A stretch of 64,000 nucleotides of DNA, taken from contig OZ024740.1 in assembly GCA_964016885.1 (NCBI GenBank), forward strand, positions 299,212,001-299,276,000. Direction: 5' to 3'. The translations under genes were made by a program, and so were the position numbers. The stretch is from Eledone cirrhosa (taxonomy: Eukaryota). The notes beneath the pieces were generated by a model. It had not been told where the DNA came from, ran no database searches, and worked only from the letters and a program-made list of their open reading frames with translations. This document shows positions 8,191 through 53,348 of this stretch, one piece after another; the first letter of the stretch is position 1, and every line of letters starts with the position of its first letter.

Positions 8191-8245
<55 letters not shown>

Positions 8246-8372
8246 CATAATTTGGGAGGGTCATGTTGCCAATAAGAAACACACGCACCAGTTGCTTTCA
8301 CTTCAATTTATTATAATAAATTTATAAATTTCTGGTTAGTTGGTTCCGCAACCAGATGGTTGTTTATATATT

Positions 8373-8415
8373 GTCACAGTTCTTTCGTCACACATTCTGT
8401 GACCTCTTCAGTGAC
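8373..8415 (-). ncRNA. Type I hammerhead, family B (pLTR), cleavage site mutated
   Basis: gtca CTGAAGA g-gtcaca-gaatg-tgtgac GAAA gaac TG tgac; H17 = G violates the NUH rule. Confidence 0.65.
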
Positions 8416-8706
8416 TGGGGCTTCTTTTCTTTGTTTCTTTGCCTCTCCTTTGTTCTGTCCTACGCCATATTGTTTTTGTGAGTGTTTTGTGTGCTTAGTT
8501 TGCGCATGTGTTACATCCCATTATGTGTTACATCCCATTATGCCAAACCAATGACTTCCAAATATCTGATCCACCGAAACTCAGCTGTTTCGGACCATAC
8601 CAAAATCAACATACTGATTGCGGATTTGGTACGGGTGATGAGAAACGTGTCCCGCATGTGAAACCTCAAAGAACTATAGAGACACATACAACACTTCATC
8701 CACCGT

Positions 8707-9273
8707 ATGCAGTTCTCTGGTTACAATCGGAGAGATAAAATCAGAGTGTATAGAGGAGCCAGAACCAAATGGGAAAAAATGGTAAATAATGACACAAATG
8801 GGACCTGCCCCTTGTATAAGAGCAAATTTTGGAATAGAATAGAAAGAACTAGGAATAAGGCTAATAGAATAAACTCATGGTATGATAGCAATAAATACCA
8901 GAGTGTAATGTTCATCGATACAACCCCTAGAGGTGAATTAGCTTACAAATTTCGAAGGGGCCTAGATAAACATAAACTCAATATTAAGATAGTAGAAAGA
9001 CCAGGTACCTCCATAAACACACTTATTAGCAAGACATACCCTTTTCAAAGACCTCCCTGTATAGATAAGAAATGTATAATCTGTAAATTAAGCCCCCATA
9101 TTAACTATAAAACTAGAAATATAGTACATAGCATAAGATGTACTGAAGGACAATGTAGAGATAAAAATATAGTGTACATAGGTGAGACAGCTCGTAGTAT
9201 AGGAGAACGGATAAATGAACACTGGCGAGACCTTCAAGATAGTAAAGAATCATCTACCAACATGCTAAAATAG
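8707..9273 (+). pseudogene. PLE RT thumb/linker + GIY-YIG endonuclease fragment
   Basis: MQFSGY...CIDKKCIICK...VHSIRC...VYIGETARSIGERINEHW; frameshifted relative to the 30669-31826 ORF. Confidence 0.85.
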
Positions 9274-9635
9274 AACATAAGTGTAAATTAGAGAACATAG
9301 AAATAAAAATAGAATCTACACACAGAAAAGACGCAATGTTTAGACAAATCACAGAGGCAATAAACATAAATAAATTACAACCAAAATTAAATAGAAAACA
9401 TGAGTGGAACAGCAACATCACAACTTACAATTAAGGACAAAATGAAAACACACACACACATAGAACAAACAACCAACCAGTAACATGTAAATAAACAAAT
9501 AAATAAACGAATATAAACACACACAGACACCCGGATGTAACACATGCGCAAACTAAGCACACAACACACACACAAAAACAATATGGCGTAGGACAGAACA
9601 AAGGAGAGGCACAAAAAACAAAAAAAGAACCCACA

Positions 9636-9678
9636 GTCACTGAAGAGGTCACAGAATGTGTGACGAAAGAACTTTGAC
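9636..9678 (+). ncRNA. Type I hammerhead, family B (pLTR)
   Basis: gtca CTGAAGA g-gtcaca-gaatg-tgtgac GAAA gaac TT tgac. Confidence 0.8.
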
Positions 9679-10062
9679 ATATATAAACAACCATCTGGTT
9701 GTGGAACCAACCAACCAACCAGAAATTTATAAATTCCTAAATTTATAAATTTATTATAATAAATTGAAGTGAAACACTGGTGCGTGTGTTTCTTATTGTC
9801 AACATGACCCTCCCAAAGTATAACAATATCGGTTTCAACACACGTTTTCAAATAAAGAATCTTGATAAACAAATTCAGAAACGAAATATATATATATAGA
9901 TAGATAAATATACACGGGTGTGTATGATTGTGTATAGAAGATTATATTAATAAAAGGAATTCCAACTTTGTCTGATTTACTCGTTTTATTTACAATCCTT
10001 TAAAATTTATAATGTTATTATAATGAAATAGTTTGATAGAATATTAAATGTTAAGTGTTAAT

Positions 10063-17276: not shown

Positions 17277-17596
17277 ATTTAAATTTTAGCCATGTTATAT
17301 TGAGATGTAAGTAAATGTAAAATGTAAAATATAAATAAGGATTGCTCTGCTAAAATATACTAAAATATTTGTGTAACTTACACAAACTTCTGTCGTATTA
17401 TTATTATTATTACTTTTTTTTTTTTTTTTTTTTTCAAATTCAATGATGTTCCAGAACAATATAAAAGAGATAATTGGCAATTTAGGTTCTGGAACAAAAA
17501 AGATCATTGGCAATAAGGGCAGGGGCCCCAGGTTATCACAGCCTGGGCCCGCTCGCCATCGTGCCATTGTAATAGAGATGGTCATCTTACGGAATT

Positions 17597-20220
17597 TTGT
17601 GGAGAATATACATTCTTCTGGAAAGGAAGAGATGAAGGAACCAGAAGAGAGGCCGGGGTAGGATTTGCTGTTAAGACTGTGCTTGTGAACAAATTAGAGG
17701 AATTCCCAGTAGGGATTAGTGAGCGTCTTATGTCCATGAGAGTTCCGCTGGACAAGGGAAGATATGCTACCCTGGTGAGTGTGTATGCTCCAACTATGAG
17801 TTCTGTCGATGAGGAAAAGGTGTCCTTTTACCATGCCTTGAAAGGTGTTTTAAGAAATATCCCCCAGGCAGACAAAGTCATCGTGCTTGGTGACTTTAAT
17901 GCTAGAGTGGGTAGGGATTTTAACACATGGAATGTAATCGGAAGGCATGGGGTGGGAAAGTGTAACAGCAATGGGATGCTCCTGCTGTGTTACCAACACC
18001 ATGTTCCAACAAAAGAACAAATTCAAGACCACATGGATGCATCCTGCATCTAAGGAATGGCATCTTTTGGACTACGTGCTAGTCAGGATGCGTGACAGAC
18101 AGGATGTGCAGTGTGTTCGTGTTCTTCGTGGAGCTGAGTGCAGGACGGATCACCGCCTGGTACGCGCAAAAGTGAAACTAATCACTAAACGTAAAATCCG
18201 GGCTCCTGGTGTTGCCCTGCCCAAAAGATTGAATGCTGGTCGTCTTAAGGATAAAAATGTGAAGAGGACATTGGAAGAAGAGATGCAGGCTGCAGATCTT
18301 GGTGAGGATTGGCCGACCCTTAAAAAGTCGGTTTATGATGTAGGCAGGCGTGTTCTGGGATTGGCGCAGAGGAAACATCAGGACTGGTTTAATGAGAATG
18401 ATGTACATATAGAGGACTTGTTGGCTGACAAGGGGCGTGCTCTGTCACGCTATTTGACGGCAAAACCACAGGAGAGGAATACGTTGCATGAGGAACTCAG
18501 GGATATAAAATCACGTGTTAGGCGGAGTCTTTCTCAGATGAAGGATCAGTGGTGGAGTGAGAAGGCTGGTGAGATACAAACTGCGTCTGATTCCAATAAC
18601 ACAAAGCTGTTGTACAGTCTCTTGCGTGAGGTTTATGAACCGTCTTCTTCTCTGGTGACACCGCTCCGCAGCAAGGATGGCAAAGAACTTCTTCGTGACT
18701 CACAAGGAATTCTACGAAGGTGGCGAGAGCACTTTGATGATCTTTTGAATCAGCCGTCTGTCGTCAGTGAAGATTTCCTCAATCTCATTCCAGAAAGTCC
18801 TGTGAAAGTAGCTCTCGCAGAACCTCCGACGCTTGTGGAGGTTGCAGTGGCTATTTCGAAGCTGAACAGTGGAAGATCTCCAGGTATGGATAGCATACAT
18901 GCTGAGCTCCTACAATAGGGTGGTGAGAGACTCCTGCAACATCTGCACTCTTTGTTTGGAAGGATATGGGCTAATGAATCCGTAACTGAGGATTGGAGAG
19001 ATGCAGTAATGGTGGTCTTGTACAAGGGAAAGGGTAACAGGAACGATTGTGGGAACTACAGAGGTATATCATTGCTTTCTGTCGTAGGGAAAGTTTTATG
19101 TAGGGTGCTTCTGGACCGTCTGCTGACACACATTGCAGATTGTGTTCTTCCTGAAAGTCAATCTGGTTTTCGTGCTGGACGCGGCACTACTGATATGATC
19201 TTCTCAGCTAGACAGCTCCAGGAGAAGTGCATGGAACAAGGCTTGGATCTGTATCAGGTTTTTGTCGATCTGACAAAAGCTTTCGATACTGTTAACAGAG
19301 ATGCATTATGGAAGGTTCTCCAGAAACTTGGTTGCCCTGAGAAGTTCCTTGCTTTAGTTAGGTCTTTCCATGACGACATGAAGGCTTGGGTTAATGTCGG
19401 GGGTAACATGTCGGAGCCTATCTCAGTAAAAAATGGAGTGAAAGAGGGGGATATTCCAGCACCGACCCTGTTTGCCATATACTTTACAATGGTTTTCTGT
19501 ATTGCATTCAGGAATTGCGAGCATGGTGTTTACATCCGATATCGAACCTCAGGCAGCATATTTAATATCAGGCGCTTTGCTGCGAAGACAAAAGTATTTA
19601 CATCAATCATAAGAGACCTCTTGTATGCAGATGATTGCGATCTTGTAGCGCACACAGAGAGAGATATGCAGCACATTTTGAATGCATTTTCTGACGCTTG
19701 CACTGCCCTAGGTCTGACTGTCAGTCTCAAGAAAACCGTCGCCATGTACCAACCTGCCCCTGGTAAGCAGTACACTGAACCAAACATCTATGTGTATGGC
19801 AAACGACTTGGAGTGGTTGATCAGTTTGTCTACCTGGGAAGCACTGTCAATCGATACAGCAACCTTGACAGTGAAATCTCACTTAGGATTAGGAAAGCAA
19901 GTGATGCTTTCGGAAAGCTAGAAAGGCGACTCTGGGGTCGGCGAGACATATGCAGGAGGGCAAAGGTAAAGGTGTACAGGGCATGTGTGCTCTCTTGTCT
20001 TCTTTATGCCTGCGAGACCTGGGTCACATATCGACACCACCTTAAACAATTGGAGCGTTTCCATCAGATGTGTCTCAGACGGATCCATGGCGTTCACTGG
20101 AGGGACCACATCAGTGATGTCGAGATTTTGGAAAGCTCTATGTGTGACAGTATAGAAGCTCTTGTGCTTAAGCAACGACTCCGTTGGAGTGGTCACCTTG
20201 CCAGGATGAAGGATTCTAGA
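17597..20220 (+). mobile_element. RTE-clade (BovB-like) LINE, APE endonuclease + RT, disrupted
   Basis: SVYAPT, VLGDFNARVG, LLDYVLVR, TDHRLV (APE); NYRGISLLS, FVDLTKAFDTV, LLYADD, FVYLGS (RT). Frameshift near 17990, in-frame TAG at 18916-18918; the 3' end runs into (ATGT)n. Confidence 0.95.
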
Positions 20221-20285
20221 ATGTATGTATGTATGTATGTATGTATGTATGTATGTATGTATGTATGTATGTATGTATGTATGTA

Positions 20286-20712
20286 TGGCCATCCAAAATC
20301 ACTGGGAGAGATGACCCCTTAGCCTTTGTCAAGGCAGAATTCTAGGAGAAGGAAAACTCTGATATAACACCTGCAACCCTGATGGTATCCAATGATGTTG
20401 ACTTGTTCTTCTTTTTGGTAAATATCATCTTGGTTAAGAGAGTGCGACTGGCTTTGTGCAGTGCCTTTGCTCACTATAAAAGCTTCACGGAACAGGCATT
20501 GCTTTATATCTGGAGATCTCTCTGCACTTGTCATCACATGGTACCATGGTCCCAGCACTGTATCAATAATTGTCACAAGTGTAGTGTTTGTACCAGAGTT
20601 TTCAAGTCGCTGGCTGGACTAAAAAGTCACACTCGTTCAGCGCAATGGTAGGGTTTCTCCTACATGGATATAAAGTAGTGTCCGTACTCGAAAACGAGTT
20701 GGCAGCCACCAT
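20286..20712 (+). mobile_element. 3' part of the RTE-derived non-autonomous element
   Basis: Near-identical to 44838-45266; retains C2H2-like remnant CSVCTRVFKSLAGLKSHTR. Confidence 0.85.
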
Positions 20713-24546: not shown

Positions 24547-26666
<2,120 letters not shown>

Positions 26667-29163: not shown

Positions 29164-30668
29164 TTCCAATGACATACGACACGATTCATTGTTGTTCCAA
29201 AAGAATAACAATAATGGGAACTTTTCCATAGAAAGCAAAGTTTATAAATGAATATGTAACAATCTGATGACGATCGCATTTAAAATTCATGTTAGTCACG
29301 TGAACTATTTTAGCCAATCTAAAGTTTTAGCTCATATACTAGTTGTCTTTAAATTTCCTTTGGCTAGTTCCATGTGATCATAGTAGCTTCACCGTTGACA
29401 CGTGACATATTTTGCCCTATCAGAAATTTAAACCCACAAACAACTAATCGTCTGCGGAGACTAATTTTGCCTGCAATAAATATGTAAAATTTGTTCAGAC
29501 CTATTGAGTTTCTCTTAAGTTATTCGCTCGGTACCAGACTATCTGGCCAGCTCTTCAGTTCTCTTTCCATTCTTTCATTGGAAGATTGTCTGTCCTTCTC
29601 CCCCACGCCGCTAGTAACCATATGTTCGTCTTGTTCTAGCCCCGACAGAATAATTTCAAGCAGATTAAATTCACATACGCTTAAATGATTTTTCTCTTAA
29701 CTGACCGTCTTTTATCTGCTTGTACACATTTAACTCTACGATACAAATGATTTCATTACCACGATAACATGAAATAATATATGTACATTTTCCCTAACAT
29801 TTCTACAACATAAATTATCTAATTGATTTATCGACGTACATTTTCGTGAGCACATTTATATAAACTTTGCTTTCATTGATCTTGTAAATTAAGATGTGAA
29901 TTTCCTATGTCTAAATTCTGCTCTGTTTTAATCTGTGCTTTCAAACCATGTGCTGTGTAATTATCATTGCGTTATCCTACCAGCAATGCTGGAAGAGGTT
30001 TATCTTTGTTGATATTTAGGGGGATAATAATAAAAAAAATATATAATATCAATATCGGCATGGATTCAACCTATCAGCTGGAACACATAATACAGTAATA
30101 GAGTAATTTTAGTTTTTATATGCACCCTCACCTATTTTCTTACAATTAGCAATCCAACGATCGAACAAAACAACCACGTTTCTAAATTAACTACTATGAT
30201 TCAGCCTGAATATTGTTACTCCGAATTTTCGATCAAGCATCTAAGTTTCTGATTAAATAGCTACGAATCAGTTTACAATTTGTGACGGAAAAAATTCGAA
30301 CAAATAAACATTGTTCTAGTTACAGAGATATATTTGAAGGATTGCAACAGCTCAGCATTAAATATTTTACGCAGTCAGACTACGAAATTTTCAATATGTT
30401 CAATTTACTGCCGTCACTAAAGTAACGTTACTACACCATTTCTTTTTCTAAGCTTTCCACTTAAATCTCTTTGGTGGTCGACCTAGTTTACTGTTTTCAA
30501 TATTTAAAAAAACAACTTTAGTCTGAGTAACCGACTCTTCTTAATTAGAAATAACAACAGCCAATTACGATGCAACGTTCATTGGTCATGTGGAACATGA
30601 CCAAATAAGGAATGTTGAAAGGTGTGATTTAAGTTAAAGAACAATTAGAAGACCCCTTAACCCTGATA

Positions 30669-31826
30669 ATGTACTCCCGCTACGTTGATGATATAAACAT
30701 CGTAGTTAAGACACCCCCACTAGAGAACAGTCAGGAACTAGAGAAAAACACAATGGAAAGCATCCAGCAAATAGCAAACTCCATCCTCCAGAGCATTAGA
30801 GTTACTATAGACTATCCAAGTAAACACCCCAACCATCGATTACCTGTACTAGACACAGAGCTCTGGTTAGATACCATTAACAACAAAAAACAAATCCTCC
30901 ATTCCCATTATGCCAAACCCATGACCTCCAAACATCTGATCCACCGAAACTCGGCCGTTTCGGACCATACCAAAATCAACATACTGATTGCGGATTTGGT
31001 ACGGGTGATGAGAAATGTGTCCCGCATGTGCAACCCCGAAGAACTAGAGAGACACATACAACACTTCATCCACCGTATGCAGTTCTCTGGCTACAATCAG
31101 AGAGATAAAATCAGAGTGTATAGAGGAGCCAGAACCAAATGGGAAAAAATGGTAAATAACGACATAAATGGGACCTGCCTCTTGTATAGGAGCAAATTTT
31201 GGAATAGAATAGAAAGAACTAGGAACAAGGCTAATAGAATAAACTCATGGTATGATAGCAATAAATACCAGAGTGTAATGTTCATCGATACAACCCCTAG
31301 AGGTGAATTAGCTTACAAATTTAGAAGGGCCTTAAATAAACATAAACTCAATATTAAGATAGTAGAAAGACCAGGTACCTCCGTAAAAACACTTATTAGC
31401 AAGACATACCCTTTTCAAAGACCCTCATGTATAGATAAGAATTGTATAACCTGTAAAATAAGCCCCCATATTAACTGTAAAACTAGAAATGTAGTGTATA
31501 GCATAAGATGTACTGAAGGACAATGTAGAGACAAAAATATAGTGTACATAGGTGAGACAGTTCGTAGTGTAGGGGAACGGACAAATGAACACTGGCGAGA
31601 CCTTCAAGATAATAAAGAATCATCTATACTCTACCAACATGCTAAAATAGAACACAAGGGTAAATTAGAGAACATAGAAATAAAAATAGAATCTACACAC
31701 AGAAAAGACGCAATGTTTAGACAAATTACAGAGGCAATAAACATAAAAGAATTACAACCAAAATTAAATAGAAAATATGAGTGGAACAGCAACATCACAA
31801 CCAACTTACAATTAAGGACAAAATGA
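30669..31826 (+). CDS. Penelope-like element ORF, 5'-truncated: RT (from YVDD) + Cys-rich linker + GIY-YIG endonuclease
   Basis: RYVDDI, LPVLDTELW, HYAKPM, RMQFSGY, CIDKNCITC, VVYSIRC...YIGETVRSVGERTNEH, ITEAINIKELQPKLN; open for 385 aa. The Cys-rich linker suggests the Neptune/Nematis group (inference). Confidence 0.92.
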   Translation: MYSRYVDDINIVVKTPPLENSQELEKNTMESIQQIANSILQSIRVTIDYPSKHPNHRLPVLDTELWLDTINNKKQILHSHYAKPMTSKHLIHRNSAVSDHTKINILIADLVRVMRNVSRMCNPEELERHIQHFIHRMQFSGYNQRDKIRVYRGARTKWEKMVNNDINGTCLLYRSKFWNRIERTRNKANRINSWYDSNKYQSVMFIDTTPRGELAYKFRRALNKHKLNIKIVERPGTSVKTLISKTYPFQRPSCIDKNCITCKISPHINCKTRNVVYSIRCTEGQCRDKNIVYIGETVRSVGERTNEHWRDLQDNKESSILYQHAKIEHKGKLENIEIKIESTHRKDAMFRQITEAINIKELQPKLNRKYEWNSNITTNLQLRTK

Positions 31827-32276
31827 AAACACACACACACACATAGAACAAACAACCAACCAGTAACATGTAAATAAACAAATAAATAAATGAACATAAA
31901 CACACACAGACACCCGGATGTGGCGCATGCGCAGACTGAGCACACAACACACACACAGAAACAAAATGGCGTAGGACAGAACAAAGGAGAGGCACAGAAA
32001 CAAAGAAAGGAATCCCCAGTCACTGAAGAGGTCACAGAGTGTGTGACGAAAGAACTATGACTATATAAAAACAACTATCTGGTTGTGGAACCAACCAACC
32101 AACCAGAAATTTATAAATTTATAAATTTATTATAAATTTATTATAATAAATTGAAGTGAAAGCAACTGGTGCGTGTGTTTCTTATTGGCAACATGACCCT
32201 CCCAAAGTATAACAATATCGGTTTCAACACACGATTTCAGATAAAGAATCTTGCTAAACAAATTCAGAAACGAAAT
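31827..32276 (+). mobile_element. PLE 3' pLTR (family B)
   Basis: Matches 9445-9885; ends at (TA)n. Confidence 0.9.
32018..32062 (+). ncRNA. Type I hammerhead, family B
   Basis: agtca CTGAAGA g-gtcaca-gagtg-tgtgac GAAA gaac TA tgact. Confidence 0.82.
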
Positions 32277-32429
32277 ATATATATATATATATATATATTA
32301 GAAAGTGAGGTTTTTTTTACGAAATGAAAAATAACCGGGGTGTCCTACACCAGTGAAAGTATAAGGAAAGAAGATGAAATCGAAAATTCAACTGGAGTCT
32401 TTTTAAAAAAAGATATATTTATTTGGTTC

Positions 32430-32465: not shown

Positions 32466-32553
32466 TAGAATTGAGATGGAGGGTCTGTTGTTTTTCTCAC
32501 ATCTGGTTGGTCTTTGAATGTTACTTGTTTTATATGGAAATGCCCATATATAT

Positions 32554-32610
<57 letters not shown>

Positions 32611-32830
32611 CGTTTCTGAATTTGTTTAGCAAGATTCTTTATCTGAAATCGTGTGTTGAAACCGATATTGTTATACTTTGGGAGGGTCATGTTGCCAATA
32701 AGAAACACACGCACCAGTTGCTTTCACTTCAATTTATTATATATTTATAAATTTATAAATTTACAAATCTACAAACTTATAAATTTTTGGTTGGTTGGTT
32801 GGTTCCACAACCAGATAGTTGTTTATATAT

Positions 32831-32875
32831 AGTCATAGTCCTTTCGTCACACACTCTGTGACCTCTTCAGTGACT
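32831..32875 (-). ncRNA. Type I hammerhead, family B
   Basis: agtca CTGAAGA ggtcacagagtgtgtgac GAAA ggac TA tgact. Confidence 0.8.
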
Positions 32876-32988
32876 GGGGATTCCTTTCTTTGTTTCTGTG
32901 CCTTTCCTTTCTTCTGTACTACGAATGAGAAACAAAATGGCGTAGGACAGAAGAAAGGAAAGGCACAGAAACAAAGAAAGGAATCCCC

Positions 32989-33033
32989 AGTCACTGAAGA
33001 GGTCACAGAGTGTGTGACGAAAGGACTATGACT
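32989..33033 (+). ncRNA. Type I hammerhead, family B
   Basis: Identical mirror of 32831-32875. Confidence 0.8.
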
Positions 33034-33210
33034 ATATATAAACAACTATCTGGTTGTGGAACCAACCAACCAACCAACCAGAAATTTATAAGTTTGTAGA
33101 TTTGTAAATTTATAAATTTATAAATATATAATAAATTGAAGTGAAAGCATGGCGTCCGACCCTCCACCGATACTGCCAATCCACCGCCCTAGTAACTGTA
33201 ATAATAATAA

Positions 33211-33536
33211 CCCATCAGTGGTGGCATCCTCTGGACTGAAATCGGAGATTGAAGGACCGATTATATCAGCACAAGATCAGTGTCTGCCAACCAAAAATTA
33301 CCAAGCCAACATAATAAAAAATGGATGCAGCCCATTATGCCGTGTATGTAAAAACAACCAGAGACCATTGACCATATAATTTCAATGTGCAGTCCTATAG
33401 CTCCAACCGAATACCTAAACAGGCATGACAGAGCTGCACAATACATACATTGGATAATGTGTAAGCATTTTGACCTGCCCCATCAAAAGAATTGGTGGGA
33501 GCATCAACCAGCTCCCATACTTGAAAAAGATTACAT
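33211..33536 (+). mobile_element. Internal fragment of the R4/Dong-type LINE
   Basis: Near-identical to 52450-52776 (SAQDQCLPT...CRVC...YLNRHDRAAQYIHW). Confidence 0.9.
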
Positions 33537-33955
33537 ATGCAACACGGAACAGTGCCGTTTTATCCAATTCGACATCAATAATTACTACTCCTCCATCACT
33601 TTACCACTTCTCCTTAGAGCTATCAATTTCGCTAAAACACTCACAGTGGTTAAGGATTTCGAAGTTGATGTCATCCCCAATGCCCGTAAGTCGGTGATTA
33701 ATTTCGACGACTCTATTTGGATTAAAAAATCTAATAGTACCCTATTCGACGTGAGTATGGGTGCTAGCGATTCTGCGGAGGTTACTGATCTTGTCGGCCT
33801 TTTCCTTCTTTTCTCTATCAGGACGAATTCCCTAACGTGGGCGGTGGTTTGTACCGTGATGATGGTCTTTTGACCATGACTAAGTGCGGCCCACGTGCTT
33901 GCGACAGGTTAAGAAAAGAACTCACAGCCTTCTTTAAAGGCTTCAACCTCGCTAT
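33537..33955 (+). pseudogene. RT fragment of a different PLE clade (Naiad/Chlamys-like)
   Basis: FIQFDINNYYSSIT...WIKK...LFDVSMGASDSAEVTDLVGLFLL, then GLYRDDGL after a frameshift; clade assigned from recalled motifs, not from a search. Confidence 0.7.
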
Positions 33956-34278
33956 ACAAATAAATAAACAAATATAAACACACACAGACACCCGGATGTA
34001 ACACATGCGCAAACTAAGCACACAACACACACAAAAACAAGATGACGTAGAACAGAACAAAGGAGAGGCACAAAAACAAAGAAAAGTATCCCCAGTCACT
34101 GAAGAGGTCACAGAATGTGTGACGAAAGTACTTTGACAATATATGAACAATCGTCTGGTTGTGGAACCAACCAACCAACCGGAAATTTATAAATTCCTAA
34201 ATTTATAATAAATTGAAGTGAAAGCATCTGGTGCGTGTGTTTCTTATTGGCAACATGACCCTCCCAAAGTATAACAAT
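33956..34278 (+). mobile_element. Family B pLTR
   Basis: Matches ~9495-9828; ends at (TA)n. Confidence 0.9.
34095..34137 (+). ncRNA. Type I hammerhead, family B, palindromic loop III
   Basis: gtca CTGAAGA ggtcacagaatgtgtgac GAAA gtac TT tgac. Confidence 0.82.
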
Positions 34279-34292
34279 ATATATATATATAT

Positions 34293-34490
34293 AGGAAGGA
34301 GTAGGACCCCGACGGCTGAGCTCAAGCCGTTTCGACGGCTAATTCTGGACGAGTTTAGAATTAGCCGTCGAAACGGCTTGAGCTCCGCCGTCGGGGTCCT
34401 ACTCGTTCCTGTTACCCACTCTACTACTCTAAGTATTGAGTACTTTGGTGCGTTATGGTCCACCTGGTTCCTTACCACATTTCTTCCGTT
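34293..34490 (+). repeat. Family E end with 118-bp fold-back hairpin (34293-34410)
   Basis: 54-bp arms with 2 mismatches; right arm contains gccgtc GAAA cggc TT gagc. Confidence 0.85.
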
Positions 34491-49397: not shown

Positions 49398-52300
49398 CCC
49401 CGTGACCAAGAAATACCGGAATGGCGGCCGGCGGGGAATAGCCGTCTCTCTAGGGGAGGACGACCCCTCTAGTCTTGGTTGACACTCGTCCTAGAAGTGG
49501 TAACACGAAATGATTACCCCTTGGCGGTTAAGGATAAAACGCGACAAAATAAAGTAAATGTCAAATGATAAAATCTCATACCGGCTCGGCCGTCACTCGG
49601 ATCAAAAAGGGCCGCGTCCCTCAGAGAGGAACCAGACTGGGGTAGAAAAATCAGCTAATGGTTCAAACCTTCCCATCACTTCGGAGCTGGGGACCTCCCA
49701 TAACCGGAATACTCCTACTGTTGGCCCTCCATGCTCACCACCAAGAAATCCAAAGAAAAAGAGAGAAAAATGGTCAAGGGAAGACAATAAAGAAGTTCTT
49801 GTGGCTTTCTACACTGCCATGTACTACCCATCAAATACATCGAATACAGAACAGACATATATCAACTGTAAAAAGAAACATCCCGAAAACAGAGGCTATA
49901 ACAAACTAGCCAATATACGAAGAAATATTTAAAAAAAAAGTTACTAACTGATATAGAAATTGATCAGATCAAGCTATTAGCACAAAGTCAGCGAAGGGAA
50001 AATGAAACATGTGTCAGTGAAAACGAGGTAAATTGTAACACTTCGAATCCCAGGGTTGGGGCAGAATCACTGACAACAAAACAAATTAAAGAAAGGATTG
50101 AAAAAGTGGAGGGAGTGCATGCTCAAGATGAAACTACAAATGAAAACAATGAGATCGTAAATGATAAAGAAATGAATGAGAATGAACTTGCCAACTTGAA
50201 GGATGAAATTATGATCGAATGGATGAAAATGAAAGAATCTGACATGGGGGAACGAGACACCGTCCCTAAAATCCAGAACTGAAAACAGAACCAAAAGATA
50301 ATACACAAGACTAACATAATTCTCAAAAACATTATTATCACAAACAAACTAAACATTACTGATTTAAATCATCTCTAGTATGCATCGGCTAAAGTCACCA
50401 CTCACTTATGTGGAGTGAAAATGAAAAAACAAAGGAATTCCCATAAGAAATCTACTTGGCAAGAGAACATCAATCGCCAAATAAACCTTCTCCGATCTGA
50501 CATAGAAATTTTAACAAACTACAAAGTAGGTGAACATGTTAAACAAACTAAACTTAGAAAATTTAAAAGAAAATACAGTATAAAATCAACAAATGACATA
50601 GACATGCTGTTAAAAATAATCAAGCAAAAAGTGTCGACCAAAGCTGCTCGTATAAGGCGCTTTGAAAAACGATTTAGATTCTATAAGGACAATAATATGT
50701 TCAAAAACAACCAAAGAAACTTCTACAGAAAAATTGGCAAGTCATCAATAACTGCTAAATCAATACCACCCAAAGAGGAAGTGCAAGAATTCTGGGAAAA
50801 GATCTGGGCTGAAGATAAAGTTCATAATATACATGCCCCATGGAAAGACAGACAAATGAAAGATTCAGCTCACCTTGAGGAACAAATATGGGAAAATATA
50901 ACAGTTGAACAGTTGCGTCTGGCTCTAAGAAAAACCAGCAAATGGAAATCCCCAGGAAAAGACAAAATACCAATTTTTTGGATAAATGCCTTCACAGAGT
51001 CTCATGAGCTGTTAGCCCAACTTTTCAATGAAATAGTTAAGGAGCCAGAAAAATACCATCATGGCTAGTTAACGGCATTACATTCCTGCTTCCGAAGAAT
51101 GATGAGACAAACAATCCCAACAATACAGACCGATAACTTACTTGACCACAATGTATAACATTTTAACATCAGTCCTAACTGAATATACATATGACCACCT
51201 GATAACAAATGACCTATTTCCTAAGGAGCAGAAAGGGTGTAAACGAGGCTCATATGGCTGTAAGGATCAGCTTTTGGTTAACAAAATGATACTGGAAGAT
51301 TGTCATAATAGACACAACAATCTATCAATTGCTTGGATAGATTATAAAAAAGCATTCGAGTGTTTGCCACCAAGTTGGATTGAAAAATGTTTTAGTGATT
51401 TTCAAAATATCTCCCGTTGTCAGGAGGTTCCTGTCATTCAGTATGAAGACATGGAAAATGATACTCCTTTTGAATAGTGGAAACTAATCACTGGAAGCTG
51501 GAGAAGTTAATATTAATTGTGGAATTTTTCAGGGTGTCTCTTTATCACTGCTTTTATTCTGCATCGCACTTATACCATTAAGTAAAATGCTCAATGAAAC
51601 AAAACATGGATATAAAGTCTATGACAAAACCATTAATCACTTGTTCTACACGGATGACCTGAAACTATTTGCAAAAAATGATGAACAATTGCAAGGGCTA
51701 TTATCCACTGCGATGACATTAAAATGGAGTTTGGACTAGATAAATGCGCCAAAGCAACGTTCACCAGAGGAAAGCTGCTGAAAAGTTCAGACATTAATCT
51801 TGATCGGGGGAATGTGATAAGAGAACTTGATCAAGAGGAAACTTACAAATATCTAGGTGTTTGTGAAGGAGGCGGAATCAAGCACTCGACAATGAGGGAA
51901 AGGATAAGGAAGGAATGTTACCGCAGAGTAAGAGCAATCTTAAGAACGGAATTGAATGCAAGGAATAGGATCGATGCCATAAACACGCTTGCCATACCAG
52001 TAGTAACCTACAGTTACAATGTCATCAACTGGTCAAGCACAGAGATCCATGCACAGAATGCATCACGCTAAGGCAGATACAGATAGAATATATCTCCCTA
52101 GGAAAGAGGGAGGACGTGGGTTAATCCAGTTAGATATTGCGTTGAAAACTGCAACAATTGCATTATCTACATATCTAAGGGAATAATTGGATGATCAAAC
52201 TCGTTTTGAAACACGAAAGCATCAGAAGATCATACTCCATTACAAAAGATGCACAAAGATACAGTAATGGACTACAAATTTCAGAAGTCCCATTTACTGC

Positions 52301-53289
52301 TGCAATGGAAAACACAGAAAAAGCAAAGCAGGTAAAAGTAACTGCAAAGAAAGAACTGCTGCAGAAACTGGCTAAGAAATGGCAAGAAAAGCCTCTGTAT
52401 GGAAAATACCCAGAACGAGCTAACAATCCTGATGTTGACAAAACTTTAACCAATCAGTGGTTGGCATCCTCTGGACTGAAATCGGAGACTGAAGGACTGA
52501 TTATATCAGCACAAGATCAGTGTCTGCCAACAAAAAAATTACCAAGCCAACATAATAAAAAATAGATGCAGCCCATTATGCCGTGTATGCAAAAAACAAC
52601 CAGAGACCATTGACCATATAATTTCAATGTGCAGTCCTATAGCTCCAACCGAATACCTAAACAGGCATGACAGAGCTGCACAATACATACATTGGATAAT
52701 GTGTAAGCATTTTGACCTGCCCCATCAAAAGAATTGGTGGGAGCATCAACCACCTCCCATACTTGAAAAAGATCACATCTCAATCTTGTTGAACTTTAGC
52801 ATCCAAACAGACCGAAAAATAGATGCAAATAGACCTGATATAATATTGAAGGACTTTAAAAAGAGGGTATGCCTGCTAATTGATATGTCCGTTCCAATAG
52901 ACAAGAATGTATCTATAAAAACATTTGAAAAATTGAGCAAGTATAAGGACCTGGAGATAGAAATTGGAAAAATGTGGAAATTGAGAACTAAAACAATACC
53001 AGTGGTTGTAGGCGCTCTAGGAATGATACCTAAGGGGTCTAATGATTACTTATCGCAAATCCCAGGAAACCCGCGTATAGGAGAAATACAAAAGATAGTA
53101 CTAATGGGAACTGCCCACATACTAAGGAAGATTCTGTCAATATAAGTACATCACAAGTCTAAACACCTAAAGATGCATGTGTGTGTATGTATGTTCTTTC
53201 TTGAACATGGCGGACCTTGTTGTCGCTTGAGGTCACTGGTTGTGACTTGGTGATAACTCGTATGAACATAAAGCAAGATAAATGCAACT

Positions 53290-53348
<59 letters not shown>
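49398..53348 (+). mobile_element. Near full-length, disrupted R4/Dong-clade LINE (RT + CCHC + REL endonuclease) with (TAA)n tail
   Basis: WKSPGKD, EQKGCKRGSYGCKDQLL, AWIDYKKAF, MEFGLDKCA, YKYLGV, LKSETEGLIISAQDQ, RHD, NRPDIILKD, EKLSKYKDL, VVVGALG; many stops and frameshifts. Confidence 0.93.

What the first reader, a model, noticed from the sequence alone, without database searches (positions are those of the whole stretch)
32941..34278. Chimera of four retroelement classes between two ribozyme-bearing pLTRs
Order: pLTR(+HHR), SINE head fragment (antisense, ~33147-33189, joined through shared aaagca), short (TAA)n, 325 bp of R4/Dong LINE interior, ~420 bp of Naiad-like RT, then pLTR(+HHR). 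Dong and Naiad-like pieces are fused in frame (ORF 33385-33873) with no tails or TSDs. Inference: serial template jumping by a PLE RT. The two sense hammerheads ~1.1 kb apart could excise the cassette as a remobilisable unit, a route to domain shuffling.
Basis: partly seen in the sequence, partly recalled or inferred. Interest (0 to 1): 0.75.

Follow-up and report, generated by a model that had tools for sequence, protein, structure and literature searches.

The report
Penelope insertion copied nearby repeat patchwork
This 1.3-kb stretch is part of one young Penelope-type jumping-gene insertion that holds a near-exact copy of an older pile of broken repeats lying 37 kb away, likely copied from that neighbouring DNA while the break was being sealed; it looks like a one-off accident, not a new mobile unit.

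Summary
The parts are real and in the stated order, but the story differs. Window 33143-34280 is a 1134/1138 copy of a locus 37 kb away, inverted. That source has no upstream pLTR. There the SINE is whole, sits in a Dong (TAA)n tail and has a 15-nt TSD, so SINE and (TAA)n were genomic neighbours, not jumped-to RNAs. The patchwork is several times older than the copy. The 'Naiad' piece comes from a Hydra-clade element. The copy sits in the forward arm of a young head-to-head Penelope-like insertion with one long and one short end, as in 56 of 56 counted sisters. Two of 57 sampled sisters also hold copies of neighbouring DNA without any pLTR, which favours a local DNA template; RNA read-through with one jump remains open. 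The hammerhead-to-hammerhead unit (1,105 nt) would lack both sites where this family's copies end, and its junction occurs once in the genome. The ORF lacks the catalytic YRDD frame. The architecture matches published pLTR captures in a rotifer. The scan noted similar Penelope captures elsewhere in this genome.

The parts
32546..32608 (.). (AT)n target tract, left side
32605..32923 (-). Inverted arm of the young PLE subfamily (B), long end with the 60-nt tail, reaching -258 from the short end; carries a hammerhead motif on the minus strand
32928..33149 (+). Forward arm of the same B insertion, pLTR positions -271 to -56; type I minimal hammerhead motif, predicted cut after 33028
33143..33149 (+). 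GAAAGCA microhomology joining the B arm to the copied patchwork; junction found once in the genome
33143..34280 (+). 1,138-bp copy (4 differences) of the locus at G000:C1:299,207,172-299,208,309, minus strand, about 37 kb to the left
33143..33189 (-). First 47 nt of a SINE that is complete at the source (tRNA-type A and B boxes read by eye)
33194..33208 (+). AACTGTAATAATAAT: Dong 3' end and (TAA)n tail, duplicated as the SINE's TSD at the source
33208..33535 (+). R4/Dong LINE interior (between RT and REL endonuclease), two 1-nt deletions shared by both copies
33534..33958 (+). RT interior of a high-copy Hydra-clade PLE; 11 private changes shared by both copies, one a 1-nt deletion before YRDD
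33953..34280 (+). Older (A-type) pLTR of the same PLE family, positions -353 to 0 (short end); hammerhead motif, predicted cut after 34133
33385..33873 (+). Chance fusion ORF (162 aa from ATG): Dong remnant plus partial Hydra RT, leaves frame before YRDD; no Pfam hit below E 0.07
34277..34293 (.). (AT)n target tract, right side
30628..32280 (+). Separate 5'-truncated copy of the same PLE family (RT end plus GIY-YIG); not part of the insertion

Best explanation
Window 32605-34280 is one head-to-head insertion of a young Penelope-like subfamily in an (AT)n tract, and its forward arm holds a 1.1-kb copy of an older repeat patchwork 37 kb away, likely made by DNA-templated synthesis at the element's own break. 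Shown: the source, its priority, the copy's limits, the long/short end pattern and the junction microhomologies. Inferred steps: (1) the right DNA end carried up to 54 nt of pLTR end, as fresh cDNA or as an arm already in place; (2) it paired with the nearby old pLTR, which is identical over those 54 nt; (3) it was extended 1.08 kb through pLTR, Hydra, Dong, tail and SINE head; (4) it rejoined the B arm at the 7-nt GAAAGCA match, next to where it had left. The result looks like a pLTR-flanked cassette but is a dead, single-copy accident. About 0.9 for 'local copy of a pre-existing patchwork'; 0.5 for the DNA-template route.
For: Second copy 1134/1138, inverted, longer at both ends: whole SINE on one side, 60-nt tail on the other. 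Differences split 2 and 2 between the copies. Patchwork older: 11 private changes in 425 nt of Hydra shared by both copies. A random site would fall within 37 kb of the source with probability about 2.5e-5. End types fit the family rule: 56 of 56 counted double-ended insertions have one long and one short end; the window has long-left and short-right although the source has the long end. The B arm stops at -56 and the first source-specific base is -55 (T; B arms have A in 91 of 96), so the copy is in register. Sisters copy neighbouring DNA that has no pLTR: 3.9 kb from 1.2 kb away, 99.3% and 35 nt from 1.1 kb away, inverted. No A>G excess in the 3.9-kb case (4 of 14 substitutions). L1 insertions with sequence templated from nearby DNA are reported (PMC11702581, passages).
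Against: Only 54 nt of identity on the invading side, with closer pLTR copies within 1 kb. The new strand passed about 220 nt of roughly 80-90% similar pLTR without annealing there. The two sister captures sit between the arms' 5' ends, not at an arm's 3' side, so they are not the same geometry. The copy ends exactly at an RT start site and is in the sense orientation, as RNA-templated synthesis predicts. The 3.9-kb case was read as one insertion from its end types and ages; two single-ended insertions plus a duplication are possible. Two double-ended insertions outside the count break the end rule (L092 short/short; a long/long one that ran off its locus). Timing of arms against copy cannot be separated (2/207 against 4/1138, p=0.23).
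Confidence: 0.5

Rival explanations
1. RNA route. A read-through or nascent transcript from the source, carrying the old pLTR with its tail, was primed in trans at the short start site by the young element's RT; after 1.13 kb the RT jumped once onto the B RNA at GAAAGCA and ran off its 5' end (or the cDNA replaced the last 54 nt of a B arm already in place).
For: Copy is sense and ends at one of the two family end sites. Internal initiation at two adjacent sites on uncleaved RNA, with both DNA strands cut and extended, is shown in vitro for another PLE (PMC11167929, parts 1-2 of 4). The B arm starts at -271, in the family's cluster of 5' ends at -259 to -283 (23 of 139). pLTR-driven mobilisation in trans is proposed in PMC3846280.
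Against: Needs a local bias to explain 37 kb. No host exon was found to give a transcript (67 of 239 candidate frames scanned, 0 Pfam hits). Landing at -56, beside the first diagnostic base, is then partly coincidence. Sister captures lack a pLTR.
Confidence: 0.33
2. One reading: one PLE RT jumped serially over pLTR, PLE RT, Dong, SINE and pLTR RNAs, making a ribozyme-bounded unit that can move again.
For: All junctions have 2-7 nt microhomology; Hydra and Dong pieces are interior, sense and lack their own 3' ends. For the source alone, two jumps (pLTR to Hydra to Dong) are about as likely as nested insertions with two deletions (inference).
Against: SINE with TSD and Dong tail are genomic at the source; two ages; junction counts 1, 2 and 2 in the genome; cut unit lacks both end sites; 1 of 139 arm ends lies within 10 nt of the cut site.
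Confidence: 0.04
3. Assembly artefact: the source stretch was pasted into a repeat by mis-joining.
For: No listed contig piece spans the stretch; no junction-spanning piece was listed in three other runs; the left junction is untested.
Against: Four differences, two derived in each copy; flanks are not duplicated; the ends follow the family rule; in run X1 the window-only base G33951 is covered at depth 19 and a 69-nt piece private to the patchwork at depth 35, as two copies would give. X1 may be the assembly's own sample, single-copy depth was not measured, and the source allele at 33951 was not listed.
Confidence: 0.06
4. A PLE-independent inverted duplication or ectopic conversion that happened to land in a B arm later.
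For: Other local duplications exist in the region.
Against: Both limits fall on PLE landmarks (short end; in-register GAAAGCA). It is the only dispersed pair above 99% and over 1 kb in 314 kb.
Confidence: 0.07

Closest known systems
pLTR-flanked captures in Adineta vaga (PMC3846280; section 9 and passages read)
   Same: Foreign DNA between two direct pLTRs with one inverted pLTR upstream; optional tail at one end only.
   Different: Cargo is repeat debris, not a gene; no TSD can be read in (AT)n; here the source is found, lies 37 kb away and already has the downstream pLTR but not the upstream one.
Canonical PLE insertion structure and two RT start sites (PMC8557442 passages and section 11; PMC11167929 parts 1-2)
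   Same: Head-to-head arms, (TA)n target, two fixed ends 60 nt apart, copies run through the hammerhead site.
   Different: Forward arm is interrupted by 1.08 kb of foreign sequence and finished by another subfamily's pLTR.
L1 insertions with locally templated sequence or two-RNA chimeras (PMC11702581, passages)
   Same: Microhomology junctions; DNA copied from near the site; template switching as the rival route.
   Different: Different enzyme; source 37 kb away; entry through a solo pLTR.
Animal non-LTR retrozymes (10.64898/2026.07.22.740005, part 1 of 5; PMC4209133 passages)
   Same: Two sense type I minimal hammerhead motifs in one stretch.
   Different: Not tandem, not a family, single copy; the two pLTRs differ by about 20%.

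Membership tests
Naiad PLE (donor of 33534-33958) | GIY-YIG endonuclease N-terminal to RT | tested here: not met
   YIG lies after YRDD in 21 of 28 donor loci, before it in 1; long ORFs show RT then EN
Hydra PLE (donor of 33534-33958) | C-terminal EN with CxCX5C linker | tested here: met
   C.C.{5}C in 25 of 28 loci; CNCRNRVDC; definition
Hydra PLE (donor of 33534-33958) | RWK and DKT motifs; CxxC and CxH around E and N; no CCHH | tested here: met
   RW[RK] 14 of 28, DKT 20 of 28, C..C..E 21 of 28, loci cut at 1.5 kb flanks; absence of CCHH judged by eye
Hydra PLE (donor of 33534-33958) | Placement in the clade by RT phylogeny | not tested
   No reference sequences held; the paper's supplementary alignments were not read
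R4/Dong LINE (33208-33535) | RT plus REL endonuclease | tested here: met
   RVT_1 E 4.6e-21 in the neighbouring Dong; CCHC and PD..D..K motifs read by eye
R4/Dong LINE (33208-33535) | (TAA)n target or tail | tested here: met
   18 of the 19 loci that show the 3' end (of 28) run into (TAA)n; feature from PMC7998251 passages
Canonical C-terminal EN+ PLE, Neptune/Nematis type (pLTR family) | RT, CX2-5CxxC linker, GIY-YIG with CCHH, tandem pLTR structure | tested here: met
   Full 4,084-nt tandem unit in L226 with these motifs; choice between Neptune and Nematis not tested
Canonical C-terminal EN+ PLE, Neptune/Nematis type (pLTR family) | Inverted 5'-truncated arm, tail at one end only | tested here: met
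   56 of 56 counted double-ended insertions among 94 classed in 85 loci; window conforms
Type I minimal hammerhead | CUGAnGA and GAAA cores, helix II, helix I, short helix III, UH triplet | tested here: met
   Both motifs keep the cores and helices. No Rfam match at gathering score; fold z-scores -0.9 and -1.0 are not significant
Type I minimal hammerhead | Self-cleavage (as dimer or protein-assisted) | not testable with these tools
   Such motifs cut poorly in vitro
Non-LTR retrozyme | Multi-copy, tandem hammerhead-bearing units | tested here: not met
   Left junction 1 copy; inner junctions 2 copies
pLTR-mediated capture (A. vaga type) | [quoted passage not shown] | tested here: met
pLTR-mediated capture (A. 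vaga type) | TSD and empty allele | tested here: inconclusive
   Both ends lie in (AT)n; no empty allele could be sought

The most novel reading that the evidence does not exclude
Penelope-like insertions copy neighbouring chromosomal DNA into their junctions in a few percent of events, and old solo pLTRs nearby act as landing pads. This would produce the published 'two direct plus one inverted pLTR around foreign, intron-keeping DNA' without any RNA of the cargo, and this locus would be a before-and-after pair of that process.
Probability: 0.3. Interest if true: 0.6.

Novelty: new member of a known kind. Interest (0 to 1): 0.33.

Why it matters
The locus itself is dead repeat debris. Its value is that donor and product both survive: the donor had only the downstream pLTR, and the upstream pLTRs were added on insertion. 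How Penelope-like elements pick up foreign, intron-containing DNA is unexplained in the papers read. With about 2,600 matches to this one young subfamily, source distance and editing marks can be surveyed genome-wide to decide between DNA and RNA templates.

Tried and rejected
Rfam at gathering score: nothing. Pfam on the fused ORF: nothing below E 0.07. No RNA holder listed; this says nothing about expression. Reads were laid on 33138-34480 only, in 4 of 24 listed runs; no junction-spanning piece was listed for X4, X5 or X22, which does not show absence. A DNA search with the forward arm returned nothing because its words are too common. The idea that the Dong piece is a duplicate of the neighbouring Dong: five variants private to that neighbour are absent; one shared variant (G at window 33484) is in the source copy only, so it was dropped as unsupported. 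Staggered-break inversion: rejected, the source keeps both flanks. Integration of a circle closed at GAAAGCA: disfavoured by the source-type T at -55. Search for sources of single-ended junctions within about 10 kb each side in 19 groups: only the 3.9-kb case was a capture. A 109-nt filler in L172 has no other match. Host exon search: 0 hits in 67 of 239 candidate frames. Literature: five searches listed no paper on locally DNA-templated capture by PLEs; only open-licence papers are searched. Supplements were not read; those of PMC8557442 bear on the clade labels.

Full report
Observation. The pieces are present in the order given: forward pLTR piece 32928-33149, antisense SINE head 33143-33189, (TAA)n, Dong interior 33208-33535, PLE RT interior 33534-33958, pLTR 33953-34280. 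The ORF 33385-33873 is open. Both hammerhead motifs keep the CUGAAGA and GAAA cores; predicted cuts are 1,105 nt apart. Rfam gives no match and the folds are not better than shuffles, as expected for minimal motifs.

A source exists. A search of the own genome found a second copy 37 kb to the left, just outside the window, inverted. It matches 33143-34280 at 1134 of 1138 bases. It is longer at both ends. Upstream it continues into the rest of the SINE and a long Dong LINE, with no pLTR; downstream its pLTR runs 60 nt further. The pLTR-SINE junction occurs once in the genome, the Dong-Hydra and Hydra-pLTR junctions twice each, at up to one mismatch.

Two ages. Both copies share 11 private changes in 425 nt of the PLE RT piece and about 6 in the Dong piece. 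They differ from each other at 4 of 1138 sites, two derived in each. The patchwork therefore formed well before it was copied. The donor comparisons use the 28 best-scoring family copies, which biases them towards the query.

Labels. [quoted passage not shown] The pLTRs belong to another PLE with a CX4CxxC linker and CCHH, Neptune/Nematis type; no tree was built. The Dong call rests on RT, REL-type motifs and (TAA)n tails. The fused ORF leaves the RT frame before YRDD, and the Dong frame is broken just upstream; both breaks are shared with the source. That the genome is octopus-type is recalled from the SINE and from earlier notes, not tested.

The insertion. The left pLTR is a young subfamily, B, with 2,600 matches to a 76-nt pattern. 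I fetched 85 regions covering the first 100 listed places, all on C1. Of 94 insertions classed (those under 90 nt or touching a locus edge were dropped), 56 are head-to-head, and all 56 have one long and one short end; 38 are single-ended (52 of 52 in the first 80 regions). Two exceptions lie outside that count. The window fits: long end left at 32605, short end right at 34280, although the source has the long end. Arm 5' ends cluster at -259 to -283 (23 of 139), likely the RNA start; 1 of 139 lies within 10 nt of the hammerhead cut at -171. The forward B arm stops at -56 and the first source-specific base is -55.

Ribozyme unit. A cut-to-cut RNA would hold pLTR -171 to -56, the cargo and -353 to -171. 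It would lack positions 0 and +60, where this family's copies end. In vitro, a PLE uses uncleaved RNA and starts at two internal sites; minimal PLE hammerheads cut poorly. With a single-copy junction, remobilisation is unsupported. Cleavage itself is not excluded.

Mechanism. Proximity (chance about 2.5e-5) demands a local template. Sisters show local copying without a pLTR. At C1:13.32 Mb a long-left, short-right pair of arms encloses 3.9 kb copied from 1.2 kb beyond the right end; copy and source differ by 14 substitutions in 3.9 kb and the arms by 7 in 3.9 kb, with no editing signature. L156 holds 35 nt copied, inverted, from 1.1 kb away. That is 2 of 57. I infer that the right end used the old pLTR as template through 54 nt of identity, was extended 1.08 kb and rejoined at GAAAGCA (0.5). 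Priming on a local read-through RNA with one jump is the main rival (0.33); earlier unreviewed notes describe RNA captures by PLEs in this genome, which I did not test. How the source patchwork formed is open: two RT jumps or nested insertions with deletions.

Reads. In run X1 the window-only G33951 is covered at depth 19 and a private 69-nt piece at depth 35; no listed piece spans the stretch, X1 may be the assembly's sample, and the left junction was not examined.

Known kin. [quoted passage not shown] Papers seen: PMC11167929 parts 1-2 of 4; PMC8557442 passages and section 11; PMC3846280 passages and section 9; PMC4209133, PMC11702581 and PMC7998251 passages; 10.64898/2026.07.22.740005 part 1 of 5; no supplements.

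Verdict. A real, single-copy PLE capture of nearby repeat debris; a new member of a known kind. Interest 0.33, mainly because donor and product are both visible and the question of template can be surveyed.

Noticed in passing
G000:C1:13,323,213-13,335,155 (L154, L155; source L155:8921 onward and L235): Long-left and short-right B arms enclose 3.9 kb copied (99.3%, direct) from 1.2 kb beyond the right end; junctions with 3-nt microhomology and an 8-nt filler.
   Followed up: yes
L156:5331-5391: 61-nt junction filler: 35 nt copied inverted from 1.1 kb away, then a short local duplication.
   Followed up: yes
L172:7212-7320: 109-nt filler between arms with no other match in the genome search.
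   Followed up: partly
L223:5045-6030 and L274:1550-2469: About 1-kb inverted duplication (98% over 779 nt) flanking an older double-ended PLE with two long ends.
   Followed up: partly
L185:2843-3699 and L225:4931-5881: The same ~0.9-kb element inserted at the same AT-rich spot of the pLTR (-73 to -84) in two loci.
   Followed up: no
window 8239-9891: Another head-to-head insertion of the same PLE family, short-left and long-right.
   Followed up: partly
window 34293-34410: 118-bp palindromic repeat, MITE-like and high-copy, right of the insertion.
   Followed up: no
window 24667-26613: Near-identical 616-bp tandem repeat (99.6%).
   Followed up: no
window 49900-53300: A further Dong copy, 94% to the one at the source over 3.4 kb and sharing one variant with it.
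   Followed up: partly
L041, L042, L047 (Dong 3' ends): The same SINE family sits antisense in the (TAA)n tail of 3 of 19 Dong copies, as at the source.
   Followed up: no
window 17517-20319: RTE-type LINE with endonuclease and RT frames (label by eye).
   Followed up: no
pLTR hammerhead helix III across copies: Loop differs by subfamily: GAAC in most A copies, GGAC in B, palindromic GUAC only in the source and its copy.
   Followed up: partly
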